Notes: generated by a model not told the origin, from the sequence alone. DNA of 64,000 nt from Anaerolineales bacterium (GCA_034417075.1 DAOULU010000037.1:41915-105914); one strand, 5' to 3'; numbered from the stretch's first letter, positions 25,916 to 40,831 are shown. Program-made: numbers and translations.

Positions 25916-27661
25916 ATGACGGAGGATTCTACAGCACAGAACGTGAAGATCAAACTCATCGAACCCTGTGGCGGGGAACTCGTTAATCTTCGAGTACCGC
26001 CCGAAGAATTGGCTGAACGAAAGGCATACGCTTCACAGCTGCCTTCGATCCAGGTGTCGTCGCGAATTGCCTGCGACCTGGAGCTGCTCGCGGTCGGCGC
26101 TTTCTCGCCGCTCGACCGTTTTATGGGAATCGAAGATCACCGGCGCGTCGTAAATGAGATGCGCTTGTCCAGCGGACATCTGTTTCCGATTCCGATCACG
26201 CTGCCCGTCGATGCGGGCGACGAGATCAAACTCGATGCCGGCATTGCCCTACGTGACGCGAAGAACAATCTGCTTGCCGTGATGACGATCGAAGAAATTT
26301 ACGAGTGGGATCATGATGAAGTCGCCCAGAAGGTTTTCCGCACACAGGATTTACGCCATCCGTTGGTTGCCGAAATGCACCGCTGGGGCAAACTCAATCT
26401 TTCCGGAAAGCTGCAGGTCCTGCGGCTTCCTCCGCACTTCGACTACCAGGAACTGCGCATGACCCCGCAGGAAACCCGGCAAAGGCTGCTGGAGTACGGC
26501 CGAAGCAACGTCGTCGCCTTCCAGACTCGCAATCCGCTCCATCGGGTGCATGAGGAACTGACCAAGCGCGCCACGCAGGAAGTGGATGGCGTGCTCCTGC
26601 TGCATCCCGTGGTGGGCATGACCAAACCCGGTGATGTGGATCATTTCACGCGCGTGCGTACCTACAAAGCGCTCGCCTCGCGATATTACGATCAGGACCG
26701 CATCCTGCTGGCGCTGCTGCCCCTGGCGATGCGCCTAGCTGGCCCGCGTGAGGCGCTCTGGCACGCTCTGATTCGCCGTAATTACGGTGCCAATCACATC
26801 ATCATCGGCCGCGATCACGCCGGACCGGGGAAGGATTCACAGGGCAATCCGATCTATGGCCCGTACGAAGCCCAGGAATTGGTGTCCAAACACAGCGAGG
26901 AACTTGGTGTGACGATGCTTCCTTTTCGAAGCTTGGTCTATCTTCCTGACGAAGACCGATACGAAGAGATCAGTAAAGTCCCGCAAGGAGCCCAGACCGC
27001 TTCGATCTCCGGAACGCAAGTGCGGGAAGAGTACCTCAACAACGGCGTTGAACTGCCACAGTGGTTCACGCGTCCCGAGGTGGCCGAAATCCTGGCCGAA
27101 AGTTATCCGCCGCGGCATCGACAGGGCGTATGCATCTGGTTCACCGGCCTGAGCGGCGCCGGAAAATCGACCATCGCCTCCGTGCTGACCGTACTGCTGC
27201 AGGAAAATGGTCGTCACATTACCGTGCTCGATGGCGACGTCGTGCGCACAAATCTCTCCAAGGGCCTGGGCTTCAGCAAAGAAGACCGTGACGTCAACAT
27301 CCGGCGCATCGGCTTCGTCGCCGCCGAGATCGTGCGCCACGGCGGAATTGCAGTATGCGCGGCAGTGAGCCCGTACCGGGCGACGCGCAACGACGTGCGC
27401 AACATGGTTGGTAAGGATCATTACGTCGAGGTGTTCGTCGACACGCCGCTGGAGGTGTGCGAACGGCGCGATGTAAAGGGCTTGTATGCCAAGGCACGGC
27501 GGGGTGAAATCAAGGGCTTCACCGGCATCGACGATCCCTACGAAGCGCCGCATCACCCCGAAATCGCCCTGGATACAGTGAACAACACGCCGGAAGACAA
27601 CGCCCGTCTGATTCTGGAATACCTGCAGGAGAAGGGTTTCGTCCGGAGTGGGAAGACGTAA
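25916..27661 (+). CDS. sat/cysC: Bifunctional sulfate adenylyltransferase / adenylylsulfate kinase (PAPS synthase)
   Basis: [11 protein letters not shown] (HxxH), IIGRDHAG, P-loop [36 protein letters not shown]. Confidence 0.95.
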
Positions 27662-27704
27662 AAAGCGTAATCGATCGCAGTGCGTTCGTGGATAAGAACA
27701 CAAA

Positions 27705-28814
27705 ATGTCTGCGCGAGAAATGCGAACGATGAAGAACGTCCTGGTTACAGGGGGCGCGGGATTTATCGGTTCGAATTTTGTCCGTTACTTGCTGCGTGAA
27801 GAGCCAGCTTTGAAGATCGTCAATCTCGATAAGCTCACCTATGCCGGCAGCCGGGTAAATTTACTGCACCTGAGCGATTCCCAGCGCCATCATTTCGTAC
27901 AGGGCGACATCTGCGATCAAACCTTCGTGGAAGACCTGCTGCGTGCGCACGAGATCGATACGATCGTTCACTTCGCAGCAGAATCCCACGTGGACCGTTC
28001 GATCATCGGCCCGGCAACGTTCATCCAGACGAACGTCGTCGGGACGTTTTCGCTTTTGGAAGCGGCCAGAAAAGTCTGGATCGATGAAAAGGCGCTTCCC
28101 TTGGACGCGGCTCGCTTTCACCACATTTCTACTGACGAAGTCTACGGCTCGCTCGGTCCGCGGGACGCGGCTTTCTCCGAAACAACCGCCTTTGCGCCGA
28201 ACTCGCCCTACGCGGCATCGAAGGCGGCCAGCGACCATTTGGTCCGCGCCTATACGCACACCTACGGTCTGCCGATCACGATTTCGAACTGTTCCAACAA
28301 TTACGGTCCCTACCAATTCCCCGAAAAATTGATTCCATTGACGATTTCCAACGCTTTGTCCGGAAAGCCGCTTCCGCTCTATGGGGATGGCAAGCAAATT
28401 CGCGACTGGTTGTACGTCGAGGATCACTGCGAGGCGCTCTCACTGATCCTGCGCAGCGGCCATCTGGGAGAGACGTATAATATCGGTGGCGACAACCAGC
28501 CGACCAATCTCGAGGTCGTTCGCCAATTGTGCGCGATTCTCGATGACCTGGCACCGGATACGGGTACTGTCCCGCACGATTCCCTGATTGCATTCGTCGC
28601 CGATCGTCCGGGGCACGACCGGCGTTATGCCATGAATATACAGAAGATGCAAACCGAACTAGGTTGGGAACCGAGTCGGGATCTAGAAAGTGGTTTGCGC
28701 CAGACGGTTGCCTGGTACCTGGCAAACCTGGATTGGGTTGAAGCCATCCGCAGTGGTGCGGATTATCAACGTTGGATCGAAGAGAATTACGATCGGCGAG
28801 GGGATGCAAAGTGA
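27705..28814 (+). CDS. rfbB: dTDP-glucose 4,6-dehydratase
   Basis: [59 protein letters not shown]. The start may be at 27729. Confidence 0.95.
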
Positions 28815-39533: not shown

Positions 39534-39580
39534 TTGCAGCCTCCGTCAGGAATTCATACGAGATTATTCGCTTTCCCATA

Positions 39581-40831
39581 TCATGCGGGATGTATCTTTA
39601 TCCACTCGAAAGCAACACCAAGATAACGTAAGCCTTTGTCAACGGATCCAGTTGAGTTTGGTAAGGTGGTTCTATTTACCTGGAATATAAATTTAGTTAG
39701 AAACTTGCCTTTCATTAGTACCTCTTTCGGTATTATGCCATGATAAAGAATTTCACCGTTCACTTCATTACGAATGATATCTATTCGGGATCCATTGGCG
39801 GTTAAGGATAGGCTATCAAGGATGTCTTTCGACATATAGAGCCGTATTTTGAACAAAATCTTAACATCCGAATCCTTATGAAGCGGGAAAAAAAGTGATG
39901 ATTTTGTCCCTGGTCCGGTCCACACCCAACGGTTCTCGTTTACTACTTCTGGCACATGCCATCCGTTTCCAGGAATTGGTTCTTCGAAGTAGTATTCGAT
40001 AGTCCTTTGAGTACCGTGATTTAACTGAGGGTGATTGTTTTCGTAGTTATTTAGTAGAAGTGTATCCATCATTTGTAAATAGCGTTCATCAAATAATTCT
40101 TCCGCATATTGATAAAGTTCGACATCCAGCGAGTTAAGTTCGATAAGATGTTGAACAATAGTATCTGGTAATTCAGTTTGGTTTAATTTTTCTTCCGATA
40201 CATTAACTTTTGGAATCTGAAGTACGGGTAATAAATTAAATGTGAAGGCCAGAAGGTCGAAAGACTCTTTGATTCTTTCAACCAGACCAACAAATGTAAA
40301 GTCAGATAATCGTTTCTTTGCCAAGCCGATATCGACATCGTCTATTAACTCACGAGCATGCTTGATATCTTGTAATGATTTTATTTCTATATCGAATTTT
40401 GATCCGATAAATCGTGTCTGTAAATTCTTAAAATGACCAATGTAATTTGTATCTAGTAACATTTCTGAAATGCTGTTTATTTTGATTCCCCCCCCCTTTT
40501 CAGAATCATTTAAGAGATGCCTCGAAATTTGCTTATACTGAGAGATTGATCTTTCAATAGGTTTTCTCAACATGGTAATAAAGAACGGTTTCTTGGGGAG
40601 CAACTTATTGATTTCATAAAATACATGGCCTGTAAGTACTTTATAACTACTCAAGTTAATCGGCGTTTCAGGTAACTCATACCAACGAAGGACTTCGCTT
40701 ACATGCGAAGAACCATAGTAACCCATTAACAACTTCCGTAACGTCATACCAGCCGTCTTGGGAATGTGAATGAAACAAATTTGGTCATTCTCTATGAGTG
40801 TGTGGTTTATAGAATTCTTGTTCTCATTCAT
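39581..40831 (-). CDS. Sulfotransferase (Sulfotransfer_2-like) with an extra C-terminal domain
   Basis: FIHIPKTAGMT (5'-PSB loop), MLRKPIERSISQY (3'-PB motif), LNSLDVELY. About 130-aa beta-rich C-terminal extension. Confidence 0.8.
   Translation of the reverse strand: MNENKNSINHTLIENDQICFIHIPKTAGMTLRKLLMGYYGSSHVSEVLRWYELPETPINLSSYKVLTGHVFYEINKLLPKKPFFITMLRKPIERSISQYKQISRHLLNDSEKGGGIKINSISEMLLDTNYIGHFKNLQTRFIGSKFDIEIKSLQDIKHARELIDDVDIGLAKKRLSDFTFVGLVERIKESFDLLAFTFNLLPVLQIPKVNVSEEKLNQTELPDTIVQHLIELNSLDVELYQYAEELFDERYLQMMDTLLLNNYENNHPQLNHGTQRTIEYYFEEPIPGNGWHVPEVVNENRWVWTGPGTKSSLFFPLHKDSDVKILFKIRLYMSKDILDSLSLTANGSRIDIIRNEVNGEILYHGIIPKEVLMKGKFLTKFIFQVNRTTLPNSTGSVDKGLRYLGVAFEWIKIHPA

What the first reader, a model, noticed from the sequence alone, without database searches (positions are those of the whole stretch)
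25916..40831. Dedicated PAPS supply plus sulfotransferase: a sulfated bacterial surface glycan
Seen: a Sat-CysC fusion with intact HxxH and P-loop sits inside the glycan locus next to rfbB, with no cysH/cysIJ/apr nearby. A sulfotransferase with both PAPS-binding motifs lies among the GT4 genes. Known: sulfated bacterial glycans are uncommon (rhizobial NodPQ/NodH and LpsS, mycobacterial Stf0, cyanobacterial synechan). Inference: the ABC-exported polymer is O-sulfated. With NulO this would give a strongly anionic, animal-glycan-like surface.
Basis: partly seen in the sequence, partly recalled or inferred. Interest (0 to 1): 0.65.

Follow-up and report, generated by a model that had tools for sequence, protein, structure and literature searches.

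The report
PAPS-fed sulfated surface glycan locus
An uncultured Anaerolineales bacterium that cannot reduce sulfate still makes the activated sulfate donor PAPS inside its cell-surface sugar locus and has a heparan-type sugar sulfotransferase there, so it most likely sulfates an exported surface glycan; the design is known, but not from this group.

Summary
25916-27661 encodes an intact Sat-CysC fusion, closest to the Aquifex bifunctional enzyme. 39581-40831 encodes a soluble Sulfotransfer_2 enzyme with every PAPS-binding and catalytic residue. It resembles animal heparan sulfate 6-O/2-O-sulfotransferases and carries a CBM35-like C-terminal domain.

The fusion is the genome's only sulfate-activating gene. 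The genome, like its five congeners, has no CysH/CysD and no sulfite reductase, so PAPS can only feed sulfotransferases. There are four: three lie in glycan loci and the fourth does not.

In 41 genomes of the order, Sat-CysC and sulfotransferases co-occur 26/0/2/13 (p = 6e-9). Only 3 of the 26 also have CysH. The fusion repeatedly lies beside sulfotransferase, NulO and glycan-export genes.

Homologues of the sulfotransferase elsewhere sit directly after wzm-wzt and before GT4 genes. The nearest one is fused to a methyltransferase and follows a Wzt that has a cap-binding domain. This is the slot held by the chain terminator WbdD in E. coli O9a, so a sulfate (plus methyl) end-cap is a live alternative to in-chain sulfation.

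Verdict: a real, well-supported new member of a known kind of locus (compare Vibrio KMM 8419). No chemistry exists. Interest is moderate.

The parts
25916..27661 (+). Sat-CysC fusion (PAPS synthase); the only ATP sulfurylase and the only APS kinase in the genome
   Evidence: Pfam; NCBIfam NF004040 844 bits; PDB 2gks 764 bits; single copy; motifs
27705..28814 (+). RfbB, dTDP-glucose 4,6-dehydratase
   Evidence: TIGR01181 498 bits. The Sat-CysC-rfbB-rfbA order is kept in congeners
28772..29686 (+). RfbA, glucose-1-phosphate thymidylyltransferase
   Evidence: TIGR01207 452 bits. No RfbC and only a weak RfbD-like hit in the genome
30069..30938 (+). Wzm, ABC-2 permease of the glycan exporter
   Evidence: PF01061; galactan/KpsM-type models; 5 hydrophobic segments
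30916..31716 (+). Wzt, short ATPase (266 aa) without a Wzt_C cap-binding domain
   Evidence: PF00005 only; best NCBIfam models TagH and galactan Wzt
31876..32859 (-). Gmd, GDP-mannose 4,6-dehydratase
   Evidence: PF16363 377 bits; TIGR01472 369 bits, below its cut-off of 415
32973..33434 (-). GNAT N-acetyltransferase, probable amino-sugar N-acylase
   Evidence: PF00583; the same GNAT-DegT pair lies in the homologous locus L124
33434..34567 (-). DegT/LegC-type sugar aminotransferase
   Evidence: PF01041 430 bits; TIGR04181 374 bits, below cut-off
34675..39479 (-). four GT4 glycosyltransferase genes (34675-35928, 36122-37480, 37447-38517, 38484-39479)
   Evidence: PF00534 and PF13692; no transmembrane segments
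39581..40831 (-). ST2: soluble HS6ST/HS2ST-like carbohydrate sulfotransferase (residues 1-260) plus a CBM35-like beta-sandwich (about 275-416)
   Evidence: Pfam; profile vs PDB 5t03 E 2.5e-28; AF2 pLDDT 82.8; Foldseek 5t05 E 4.7e-10 and CBM35 2w1w; invariant residues; lowest GC of the region, 0.366
40925..42274 (-). methyltransferase with a long heptad-rich N-terminal region. Many homologues are labelled 'O-antigen chain-terminating methyltransferase'. The start codon is uncertain: a gene caller gives 359 aa
   Evidence: Pfam; sequence; homologues; nearest PDB 3dli, not WbdD
42582..46130 (+). three more GT4 genes (42582-43727, 43792-44937, 44964-46130), divergent from the sulfotransferase operon
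46327..47124 (+). two-TM protein with Wzz/PCP-like topology
   Evidence: weak PF02706, E 0.0064; hydrophobic segments at residues 18 and 233
47057..48706 (+). Wzy_C-family polytopic protein: candidate ligase or O-oligosaccharyltransferase for the exported glycan
   Evidence: PF04932; 8 hydrophobic segments; the same family ends the homologous locus L124
48703..51119 (+). GT2 (48703-49707) and Bac_transf initiating phosphoglycosyltransferase (49686-51119)
   Evidence: Bac_transf also opens locus L124
4366..10114 (+). NulO cassette (oxidoreductases, CMP-synthetase/phosphatase, NeuB, Capsule_synth-like transferase). It is a possible second client of the PAPS supply and lies directly beside Sat-CysC in other families of the order
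   Evidence: adjacency in L030, L031, L033, L034 and in L099, L112, L115, L116

Best explanation
The locus builds a polyprenol-linked glycan on the cytoplasmic face of the membrane. The parts are a Bac_transf initiator, seven GT4 enzymes, and dTDP- and GDP-6-deoxy-amino-sugar precursors from RfbA/RfbB, Gmd, DegT and GNAT.

The single Sat-CysC enzyme turns sulfate and ATP into APS and then PAPS. The genome has no APS/PAPS reductase and no sulfite reductase, so PAPS has no reductive fate and is used only as a sulfuryl donor.

ST2 is a soluble enzyme with a heparan sulfate 6-O/2-O-sulfotransferase-like catalytic domain and a CBM35-like glycan-binding domain. It transfers sulfate from PAPS to a hydroxyl of the nascent glycan before Wzm/Wzt exports it. 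A Wzy_C-family protein then probably ligates the glycan to its acceptor in this monoderm-type envelope.

The same PAPS pool also feeds three further sulfotransferases elsewhere in the genome. Two of them lie in glycan-type loci.

Shown: gene content, intact motifs, fold, absence of the reductive pathway, co-occurrence and synteny.
Inferred: enzyme activities, the acceptor, and whether sulfate goes along the chain or only on the non-reducing end (see the first rival).
For: - Intact bifunctional Sat-CysC, closest to the biochemically bifunctional Aquifex enzyme.
- One Sat and one APS kinase in the genome, both in this gene.
- No PF01507 or PF01077 in the genome. No PF01507 in five congeners.
- ST2 keeps all 16 invariant positions of its 21-member family, including H22, K25, G28, H69, R89, P91 and S97.
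- In the profile alignment its GH motif aligns with the HGH of heparan sulfate 2-O-sulfotransferase. Profile hit to HS6ST3, E 2.5e-28. Foldseek top hits are HS6ST and HS2ST with PAP and oligosaccharide bound, and the C-terminal domain hits CBM35. No transmembrane segment.
- ST2 lies in a nine-gene co-directional run with GT4 and sugar-nucleotide genes, convergent on wzm-wzt.
- 41 genomes of the order: Sat-CysC and sulfotransferase co-occur 26/0/2/13, Fisher p = 6e-9. 23 of the 26 lack CysH.
- 301 genomes of the class: odds ratio 6.4, p = 1e-12.
- Sat-CysC lies within 10 kb of a sulfotransferase in 12 of 26 genomes.
- In the 12 order-level loci examined it always has glycan-related neighbours, mostly several.
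- A relative that does assimilate sulfate (G036) uses a separate stand-alone Sat in a Sir-CobA-CysH-Sat operon.
- ST2-family homologues in other phyla sit in wzm-wzt-ST-GT4 clusters. L124 repeats the whole kit: Bac_transf, GNAT, DegT, an unannotated 260-aa gene in the Wzm position, Wzt, GT4s, ST, Wzy_C.
- Precedent with chemistry: the sulfated capsule of Vibrio sp. KMM 8419, with cysNDC, sulfotransferases and an ABC exporter in one cluster (PMC11641403).
Against: - No chemical, expression or enzymatic data exist.
- Sat-CysC is 11.9 kb from ST2 and on the other strand. It sits in the conserved high-GC scaffold, whereas ST2 sits in a low-GC, species-variable cassette. Their link is therefore genomic and metabolic, not operonic.
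- Across 80 loci from many phyla the fusion also occurs beside CysH (6 loci, mostly Dehalococcoidia), so the enzyme type itself is not diagnostic of sulfation.
- Sulfate uptake, PAP recycling (CysQ) and AprBA were not searched.
- The genome is 93.8% complete.
- The co-occurrence tests are not corrected for phylogeny.
Confidence: 0.72

Rival explanations
1. Same pathway, different mode. ST2, together with the adjacent methyltransferase, is a chain terminator. It places a sulfate (and a methyl group) on the non-reducing terminal sugar of the ABC-exported glycan. This stops elongation and sets chain length, as WbdD does with methyl phosphate in E. coli O9a. The sulfate would then be one per chain, not one per repeat.
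For: - In three cyanobacterial loci the ST2 homologue directly follows wzm-wzt and precedes a GT4 gene. From established knowledge, wzm-wzt-wbdD-wbdA is the order in E. coli O8/O9a.
- The nearest homologue, P0003 (37% identity), is a sulfotransferase + beta-sandwich + methyltransferase fusion. It lies between a Wzt that carries the Wzt_C cap-binding domain (85.7 bits) and a 1011-aa double GT4.
- Other homologues are fused to FkbM methyltransferase, GT2 or GT4 domains.
- In the window, a methyltransferase with a long heptad-rich N-terminal region lies immediately upstream of ST2. Many of its homologues carry the source label 'O-antigen chain-terminating methyltransferase'.
Against: - The window's Wzt is short and has no Wzt_C domain, so export here is not visibly cap-gated.
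- The methyltransferase does not retrieve WbdD from the PDB. Its nearest hit is 3dli.
- The ST2 beta-sandwich shows no homology to Wzt_C (hhalign probability 0.1).
- Source labels are unverified annotations.
- No sulfate cap has been described, to my knowledge.
Confidence: 0.4
2. Sat-CysC is the first step of sulfur assimilation after all, through an unrecognised or unassembled reductase. Its place in the glycan locus is incidental.
For: - It is the only sulfate-activating gene.
- Fused Sat-CysC sits next to CysH in some Dehalococcoidia, Gemmatimonadota and Acidobacteriota loci.
- The genome is 6% incomplete.
Against: - No PF01507 or NIR_SIR in this genome. No PF01507 in five congeners, each 90-96% complete, which a gap in a single assembly would not explain.
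- Presence of Sat-CysC tracks sulfotransferases, not CysH.
- G036 keeps a separate Sat for its CysH-Sir operon.
Confidence: 0.05
3. ST2 sulfates something other than the exported polysaccharide: a lipid, a small metabolite, or a protein-linked short glycan made elsewhere.
For: - The acceptor is not determined.
- The Sulfotransfer_2 and Gal-3-O-sulfotransferase families include glycolipid enzymes (Pfam names).
- One homologue (L122) has no glycan neighbours.
- A Wzy_C protein and a Thr/Pro-rich anchored protein at the edge of the locus would fit protein O-glycosylation.
Against: - 8 of 10 family contexts have glycosyltransferases adjacent, and 6 have Wzt or wzm-wzt.
- There are fusions to GT2 and GT4 domains.
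- It has a CBM-like domain and heparan-type sulfotransferase fold matches.
Confidence: 0.08

Closest known systems
Sulfated capsular polysaccharide cluster of Vibrio sp. KMM 8419 (PMC11641403); similar reports for Cobetia marina KMM 1449 (PMC11766843)
   Same: PAPS-synthesis genes and carbohydrate sulfotransferases lie inside a glycan cluster with dTDP-sugar genes, glycosyltransferases and an ABC exporter. The authors call this combination a hallmark of sulfated polysaccharide synthesis.
   Different: - The Vibrio cluster holds second copies of cysN, cysD and cysC beside a normal assimilatory set, in a diderm with Kps-type export, and the polymer's sulfate was shown by NMR.
- Here a single fused Sat-CysC is the only copy and the organism has no assimilatory reduction.
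- The host is a Chloroflexota with a monoderm-type envelope, the sulfotransferase belongs to a different and uncharacterised subfamily, and no chemistry exists.
Aquifex aeolicus bifunctional ATP sulfurylase/APS kinase (PDB 2gks; NCBIfam NF004040)
   Same: Same domain order (PUA-like, ATP sulfurylase, APS kinase). 764 bits over residues 41-577. Passes the equivalog model. All catalytic motifs are present.
   Different: Only the genomic setting differs: here the gene is embedded in a glycan locus and has no reductive partner. Fungal and Thiobacillus relatives (1i2d, 3cr8) have a regulatory or inactive kinase-like domain (my knowledge). The intact P-loop here argues against that, but activity is untested.
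Animal heparan sulfate 6-O- and 2-O-sulfotransferases (HS6ST3, PDB 5t03/5t05; HS2ST, 3f5f/4ndz)
   Same: Best sequence-profile and fold matches. Shared 5'-PSB lysine, 3'-PB arginine and serine, and the GH catalytic-histidine motif.
   Different: About 18-19% identity. ST2 is cytoplasmic and soluble rather than Golgi-anchored. It has an extra CBM35-like domain. Its acceptor is unknown and is not heparan.
WbdD chain terminator of the E. coli O9a/O8 ABC-transporter-dependent O antigen (PMC3482155)
   Same: ST2-family genes occupy the gene slot after wzm-wzt and before GT4 polymerases, and they are paired or fused with a methyltransferase. One such locus has a Wzt with the cap-binding domain.
   Different: WbdD uses a kinase domain and ATP to add phosphate, whereas here it would be a sulfotransferase and PAPS. 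No sequence homology to WbdD was shown. The window's Wzt lacks the cap-binding domain.
Synechan (xss) cluster of Synechocystis PCC 6803, rhizobial NodPQ/NodH and LpsS, mycobacterial Stf0
   Same: PAPS-dependent sulfation of a bacterial glycoconjugate.
   Different: Synechan uses Wzx/Wzy-type assembly and other sulfotransferase families. NodH and Stf0 act on small glycolipids or oligosaccharides.
S-layer glycan (slg) clusters of Geobacillus/Paenibacillus (from my knowledge, not tested)
   Same: A monoderm kit: rml genes, Wzm/Wzt, a Bac_transf initiator, a methyltransferase terminator and a Wzy_C-family O-oligosaccharyltransferase.
   Different: Those glycans are methyl-capped rhamnans without sulfate. 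No S-layer target protein was identified here.

Membership tests
Bifunctional Sat/CysC PAPS synthase (NF004040, Aquifex type) | Domain order PUA-like, ATP sulfurylase, APS kinase in one chain, and a score above the equivalog cut-off | tested here: met
   Pfam domains at 15-170, 179-395 and 403-553; NF004040 844 bits vs cut-off 669
Bifunctional Sat/CysC PAPS synthase (NF004040, Aquifex type) | Catalytic motifs of both halves: QxRNP, HxxH and GRD for the sulfurylase; P-loop, LDGD and the SP(Y/H) serine for the kinase | tested here: met
   Positions 203-207, 209-212, 298-303, 411-419, 438-441 and 485-487
Bifunctional Sat/CysC PAPS synthase (NF004040, Aquifex type) | Both activities demonstrated | not testable with these tools
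   Needs recombinant enzyme assays
Sulfotransfer_2 / heparan-type carbohydrate O-sulfotransferases | Pfam PF03567 above the gathering score | tested here: met
   38.8 bits vs 22; it is the only PF03567 gene in the genome
Sulfotransfer_2 / heparan-type carbohydrate O-sulfotransferases | 5'-PSB lysine, 3'-PB arginine and serine, and a catalytic histidine | tested here: met
   K25, R89, S97 and H69 are invariant in 21 homologues; H69 aligns with the HGH of HS2ST
Sulfotransfer_2 / heparan-type carbohydrate O-sulfotransferases | Sulfotransferase fold | tested here: met
   AF2 model with pLDDT 82.8; Foldseek 5t05 E 4.7e-10 and 4ndz E 2.3e-7
Sulfotransfer_2 / heparan-type carbohydrate O-sulfotransferases | A carbohydrate acceptor | not testable with these tools
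   Only context is available: GT4 neighbours, a CBM35-like domain, and GT fusions in homologues
Glycan gene cluster with its own PAPS supply (Vibrio KMM 8419 type) | PAPS-synthesis gene(s), sulfotransferase(s), glycosyltransferases and an exporter in one locus | tested here: met
   All lie within 25916-51119
Glycan gene cluster with its own PAPS supply (Vibrio KMM 8419 type) | The PAPS genes are extra copies, separate from an assimilatory set | tested here: not met
   There is a single copy and no assimilatory set at all
Glycan gene cluster with its own PAPS supply (Vibrio KMM 8419 type) | Sulfate ester shown in the polymer | not testable with these tools
   The organism is uncultured and there is no chemistry
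WbdD-type chain-terminating system of ABC-dependent glycans | The terminator gene lies next to wzm-wzt and the GT4 polymerases | tested here: inconclusive
   Met in homologue loci L121, L123, L125 and L127. In the window ST2 is next to GT4 genes but 8 kb from wzt, in the convergent operon
WbdD-type chain-terminating system of ABC-dependent glycans | Wzt carries a cap-binding C-terminal domain (Wzt_C) | tested here: not met
   The window's Wzt is 266 aa with ABC_tran only. Wzt_C is present in L125
WbdD-type chain-terminating system of ABC-dependent glycans | Sequence homology of the terminator to WbdD (kinase and methyltransferase domains) | tested here: not met
   A PDB search with the methyltransferase returns 3dli and mycolic-acid methyltransferases, not WbdD. 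There is no kinase domain
Assimilatory sulfate reduction | APS/PAPS reductase (CysH) and sulfite reductase present | tested here: not met
   PF01507 and PF01077 are absent although the controls ring; tblastn with relatives' CysH and Sir finds nothing; PF01507 is absent in five congeners

The most novel reading that the evidence does not exclude
Two linked readings.

(a) The ST2 + beta-sandwich family is a previously unrecognised class of chain terminator for ABC-transporter-dependent glycans. It would cap the non-reducing end with sulfate (with a partner or fused methyltransferase), a sulfuryl analogue of the WbdD methyl-phosphate cap. In some lineages the cap would be read by a Wzt_C domain.

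(b) In Anaerolineales, the widespread and transcribed 'sat' gene that metagenomic surveys book under sulfate reduction or assimilation is in fact a PAPS synthase for envelope glycan sulfation. These abundant sediment and sludge bacteria would then wear sulfated, possibly NulO-bearing, coats while depending on reduced sulfur for growth.
Probability: 0.35. Interest if true: 0.65.

Novelty: new member of a known kind. Interest (0 to 1): 0.42.

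Why it matters
- Anaerolineae are among the most abundant bacteria in sediments, salt marshes and digesters, and they are hard to culture. Their envelope chemistry is essentially unknown.
- If this reading holds, much of the order invests ATP in sulfating its surface glycans while being unable to assimilate sulfate.
- That would explain why a salt-marsh study found sulfate adenylyltransferase in 53 of 55 Anaerolineae MAGs but almost no complete sulfate-reduction pathway (PMC11748557).
- It also warns against using sat as a marker for sulfate reduction or assimilation.
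- These bacteria would become producers, not only degraders, of the sulfated polysaccharides that sulfatase-rich communities feed on.
- The soluble bacterial HS6ST-like sulfotransferase, and the idea of a sulfate end-cap, are directly testable and could serve enzymatic glycan sulfation.
- The general design (PAPS genes plus a sulfotransferase in a glycan cluster) is already documented. This scan alone has noted it in more than 200 other genomes.

Tried and rejected
- **Displaced Wzt_C domain.** I tested whether the ST2 C-terminal beta-sandwich is a displaced Wzt_C cap-binding domain. hhalign of the family profile against a Wzt carrying Wzt_C gave probability 0.1. Rejected at the sequence level.
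- **Sat-CysC-sulfotransferase triple fusion.** An apparent fusion in a Gemmatimonadota locus (L076) is an artefact of a long overlapping frame. The sulfotransferase is a separate gene directly downstream.
- **Internal paralogue.** The ST2 C-terminal domain has no paralogue elsewhere in the genome (phmmer).
- **Promoter and terminator scan** of 25500-42700 gave fewer sites than the shuffles and says nothing about operons.
- **Is the fused enzyme itself diagnostic of sulfation?** No. In 80 loci from many phyla, 20 have a sulfotransferase and 6 have CysH next door.
- **dTDP-rhamnose.** The own genome has no RfbC and only a weak RfbD-like hit, so RfbA and RfbB more likely feed the aminotransferase branch. 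A congener (G001) has rfbC and rfbD and a different small sulfotransferase-like gene at the same site.
- **Literature.** Searches for Anaerolineae or Chloroflexi with sulfotransferase or PAPS found no report of sulfated glycan synthesis in this group. One mat study found no sulfotransferase in its two Chloroflexi MAGs (PMC9723792).

Full report
**What is there.** The window is one long cell-surface glycan region of contig C37, at 41915-105914 of a 3.97-Mb genome in 45 contigs that is 93.8% complete. Earlier notes of this scan call the organism an uncultured Anaerolineales bacterium. The closest relatives of its Sat-CysC in named genomes are indeed Anaerolineae and Chloroflexota MAGs.

Pfam and NCBIfam scans give this layout:
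- 4366-12828: NulO genes.
- 14600-25520: GT2 genes and polytopic GT-C-like genes.
- 25916-27661: Sat-CysC.
- 27705-29686: rfbB and rfbA.
- 30069-31716: wzm and a short wzt.
- 42274 down to 31876, minus strand, nine co-directional genes: methyltransferase, sulfotransferase ST2, four GT4, a DegT aminotransferase, GNAT and gmd.
- 42582-46130: three more GT4 genes.
- 46327-47124: a Wzz-like two-TM protein.
- 47057-48706: a Wzy_C protein.
- 48703-53958: GT2, a Bac_transf initiator, an epimerase and a Polysacc_synt_2 dehydratase.

The stretch 30-46 kb has 37-47% GC, against 55-58% for Sat-CysC and rfbB. ST2 has the lowest GC, 0.366.

**The two enzymes named in the finding are real and look active.**

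Sat-CysC has the PUA-like, ATP-sulfurylase and APS-kinase domains. It passes the equivalog model for the bifunctional enzyme (844 bits, cut-off 669). It is closest to the Aquifex aeolicus bifunctional enzyme 2gks (764 bits). It carries QTRNP, HRVH, GRDHAG, the P-loop [13 protein letters not shown] and the SPY serine.

ST2 (416 aa) has no hydrophobic segment. Its first 260 residues match Sulfotransfer_2.
- A profile of ST2 and 20 homologues hits zebrafish heparan sulfate 6-O-sulfotransferase at E 2.5e-28, and the 2-O-sulfotransferase at E 3.6e-10.
- An AlphaFold model (pLDDT 82.8) finds the same two enzymes first by Foldseek. Residues from about 275 to 416 match CBM35-type beta-sandwich carbohydrate-binding modules.
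- The 21 family members share invariant H22, K25, G28, G68, H69, R89, P91 and S97. These are the 5'-phosphosulfate loop, the 3'-phosphate motif, and a GH that aligns with the catalytic HGH of HS2ST. The role of that histidine is from my knowledge of HS2ST.
- The family is rare: 66 hits in 5.8 billion clusters, the best at 37% identity.

**What the PAPS is for.** The whole genome has one ATP sulfurylase and one APS kinase, both in this gene. It has no PAPS_reduct family member (CysH or CysD) and no NIR_SIR sulfite reductase, although the control genomes ring. tblastn with CysH and Sir taken from relatives also finds nothing. None of the five other genomes of the genus, each 90-96% complete, has PF01507, so this is not an assembly gap. 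Activated sulfate therefore has no reductive route, and sulfotransferases are its only visible users.

There are four sulfotransferases:
- ST2, in the window.
- A Sulfotransfer_3 enzyme at C37:5177-6154, in a module of LPG_synthase_TM, GT2 and polytopic proteins.
- One at C24:77324-78292, between a Wzx-type flippase gene and GT4, WecG and Bac_transf genes.
- A 202-aa one on C22, next to a Phosphodiest-family gene.

It is wrong in that the gene is not a private copy for this locus.

**Comparative test.** I compared 41 genomes of the order, covering 36 genera.
- 26 have Sat-CysC or its parts.
- 28 have a Sulfotransfer_3 or Sulfotransfer_2 gene.
- Only 4 have a strong PF01507 hit.
- Co-occurrence is 26 with both, 0 with Sat-CysC only, 2 with a sulfotransferase only, and 13 with neither (Fisher p = 6e-9). 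For genomes at least 90% complete it is 22/0/1/6. The two exceptions carry only the small 200-aa type.
- 23 of the 26 Sat-CysC genomes lack CysH.
- G036, a relative that does have CysH, keeps a classical Sir-CobA-CysH-Sat operon with a stand-alone Sat only 40% identical to the fusion.
- In 301 genomes of the class the association persists under stricter thresholds (67/35/46/153, odds ratio 6.4, p = 1e-12).

These tests are not corrected for phylogeny.

Position agrees with this picture. Sat-CysC lies within 10 kb of a sulfotransferase in 12 of the 26 genomes (coordinates). In twelve 8-20-kb neighbourhoods it always sits among glycan genes. In four families of the order the arrangement is sulfotransferase(s), Sat-CysC, CMP-NulO synthetase, NeuB, and in three of these also a Capsule_synth-like transferase (L030, L031, L033, L034). 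The NulO cassette may therefore be the older partner of the PAPS gene.

The fused enzyme as such is not diagnostic. Among 80 loci from many phyla, 20 have a sulfotransferase next door and 6 have CysH, mostly in Dehalococcoidia.

**The sulfotransferase and the exporter.** Within the genus the scaffold GT2, Sat-CysC, rfbB, rfbA is kept at 76-96% identity, but what follows differs. G005 has wzm and wzt at only 47-57% identity. G001 has rfbC, a different 245-aa ST2-like gene, large GT2 genes and rfbD. ST2 thus belongs to a replaceable, serotype-like cassette.

I looked at nine loci elsewhere that encode ST2-family proteins:
- Three cyanobacterial loci read wzm, wzt, ST, with a GT4 gene next in two of them (L121 from Leptolyngbya sp. 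FACHB-711, L123, L127).
- L124 reads Bac_transf, GNAT, DegT, an unannotated 260-aa gene in the Wzm position, Wzt, GT4, GT4, ST, Wzy_C. That is the kit of the window in 12 kb.
- L120 and L126 have GT4 or GT2 genes and a second sulfotransferase alongside.
- L125 holds the closest homologue, P0003. It is a sulfotransferase + beta-sandwich + methyltransferase fusion. It lies between a Wzt that carries the Wzt_C cap-binding domain and a 1011-aa double GT4.

**Decoration or cap.** From established knowledge, the order wzm, wzt, terminator, GT4 polymerase is that of the E. coli O8/O9a cluster, where WbdD (kinase plus methyltransferase) caps the chain with methyl phosphate and Wzt reads the cap.
- For a cap: the ST2 family sits in that slot, paired or fused with methyltransferases. 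In the window the gene just upstream of ST2 is a methyltransferase with a long heptad-rich N-terminal region. Many of its homologues are labelled 'O-antigen chain-terminating methyltransferase' by their source.
The methyltransferase does not retrieve WbdD from the PDB. The ST2 beta-sandwich is not related to Wzt_C.

I put the cap reading at about 0.4 and keep it as a rival in mode, not in kind. Another first-stage note on this stretch raised the same idea.

**What the sugars may be.** RfbA and RfbB have no RfbC in the genome and only a weak RfbD-like hit. Together with Gmd, one DegT/LegC-type aminotransferase and a GNAT, they point to N-acetylated 4-amino-4,6-dideoxyhexoses, of the PerNAc, Qui4NAc or Fuc4NAc type, assembled by GT4 enzymes. 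This is inference only.

In a Chloroflexota envelope without LPS, the Wzy_C protein is more likely a ligase or O-oligosaccharyltransferase than an O-antigen ligase. A 149-aa membrane-anchored Thr/Pro-rich protein at 54125-54574 is a possible acceptor.

**Comparison with what is known.**
- The design is documented with chemistry in Vibrio sp. KMM 8419, where cysNDC, three sulfotransferases, rml genes and an ABC exporter lie in one capsule cluster. Its authors call the combination a hallmark of sulfated polysaccharide synthesis (PMC11641403).
- This scan has noted the same combination in more than 200 other genomes. The kind is therefore known.
- I found no paper describing sulfated glycan synthesis in Anaerolineae or Chloroflexota. 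One mat study treats Chloroflexi as degraders only (PMC9723792).
- A salt-marsh study found sat in 53 of 55 Anaerolineae MAGs, transcribed, with almost no complete sulfate-reduction pathway, and left this unexplained (PMC11748557). The present data offer an explanation.

**Verdict.**
- The PAPS source is single and shared between several sulfotransferases.
- A link between NulO and sulfate is possible but unproven.
- A sulfate end-cap is a live alternative to in-chain sulfation.

It is a new member of a known kind of system, in a phylum where that kind has not been described. Interest is moderate. The interest rests mostly on the order-wide pattern of PAPS without assimilation, and on the candidate sulfate-capping terminator family. 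Both are testable, and both are unproven.

Noticed in passing
G000 contig C37:5177-6154 (36 kb upstream of the window; locus L009): A second sulfotransferase (Sulfotransfer_3, 130 bits) lies in a module of LPG_synthase_TM, GT2, a 655-aa unknown protein, the sulfotransferase, and a second LPG_synthase_TM gene. Directly downstream is an ABC importer with an NMT1/SsuA-like binding protein (C37:7442-10003), which could be a sulfonate or taurine importer.
   Followed up: partly
G000 contig C24:75655-81805 (locus L011 7656-13806): A third sulfotransferase lies in a separate Wzx-type locus: Polysacc_synt_3 flippase, sulfotransferase, GT4, WecG/TagA, Bac_transf. A second glycan is therefore probably sulfated too.
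   Followed up: partly
G000 contig C22:301074-303963 (locus L012 9075-11964): A 202-aa sulfotransferase-like gene lies next to a 614-aa Phosphodiest (NPP/alkaline-phosphatase superfamily) gene. Small genes of this type also occur in the two relatives that lack Sat-CysC (G004, G021). Their role may therefore differ.
   Followed up: no
window 54125-54574 (-): A 149-aa protein with an N-terminal membrane anchor and a tail of about 110 residues made mostly of Thr, Pro and Ser, at the edge of the glycan locus. It is a candidate O-glycosylation acceptor for the Wzy_C-family protein.
   Followed up: partly
window 29700-46300: A low-GC cassette (0.37-0.47, against 0.52-0.58 in the flanks) holds wzm, wzt, the sugar-nucleotide genes, seven GT4 genes, ST2 and the methyltransferase. 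Congeners carry other genes at this site, as in serotype-variable O-antigen cassettes.
   Followed up: partly
loci L030, L031, L033, L034 (other families of the order); L099, L112, L115, L116: Sat-CysC lies directly beside the NulO cassette (CMP-synthetase and NeuB, with a Capsule_synth-like transferase in most of these loci). In six of the eight loci a sulfotransferase lies in the same neighbourhood. This raises the possibility of a sulfated NulO-containing glycan.
   Followed up: partly
G036:C1:4455131-4456839 and 916956-922752 (locus L117): A 6.4-Mb relative has a classical Sir-CobA-CysH-Sat operon. It also has a Sat-CysC homologue split over three frames, a possible pseudogene, and a separate Sat + CysC + sulfotransferase trio at 4555262-4557715.
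   Followed up: no
window 2627-4312 (+): A 561-aa protein with only a weak Sulfatase-family match (E 3.4e-4, below cut-off), next to the NulO genes. It is more likely an LtaS/EptA-like alkaline-phosphatase-superfamily transferase than a sulfatase.
   Followed up: no
window 40925-42274 (-): The start of the methyltransferase gene is uncertain. The longest ORF gives 449 aa, while the public gene call for the same sequence is 359 aa (P0068).
   Followed up: no
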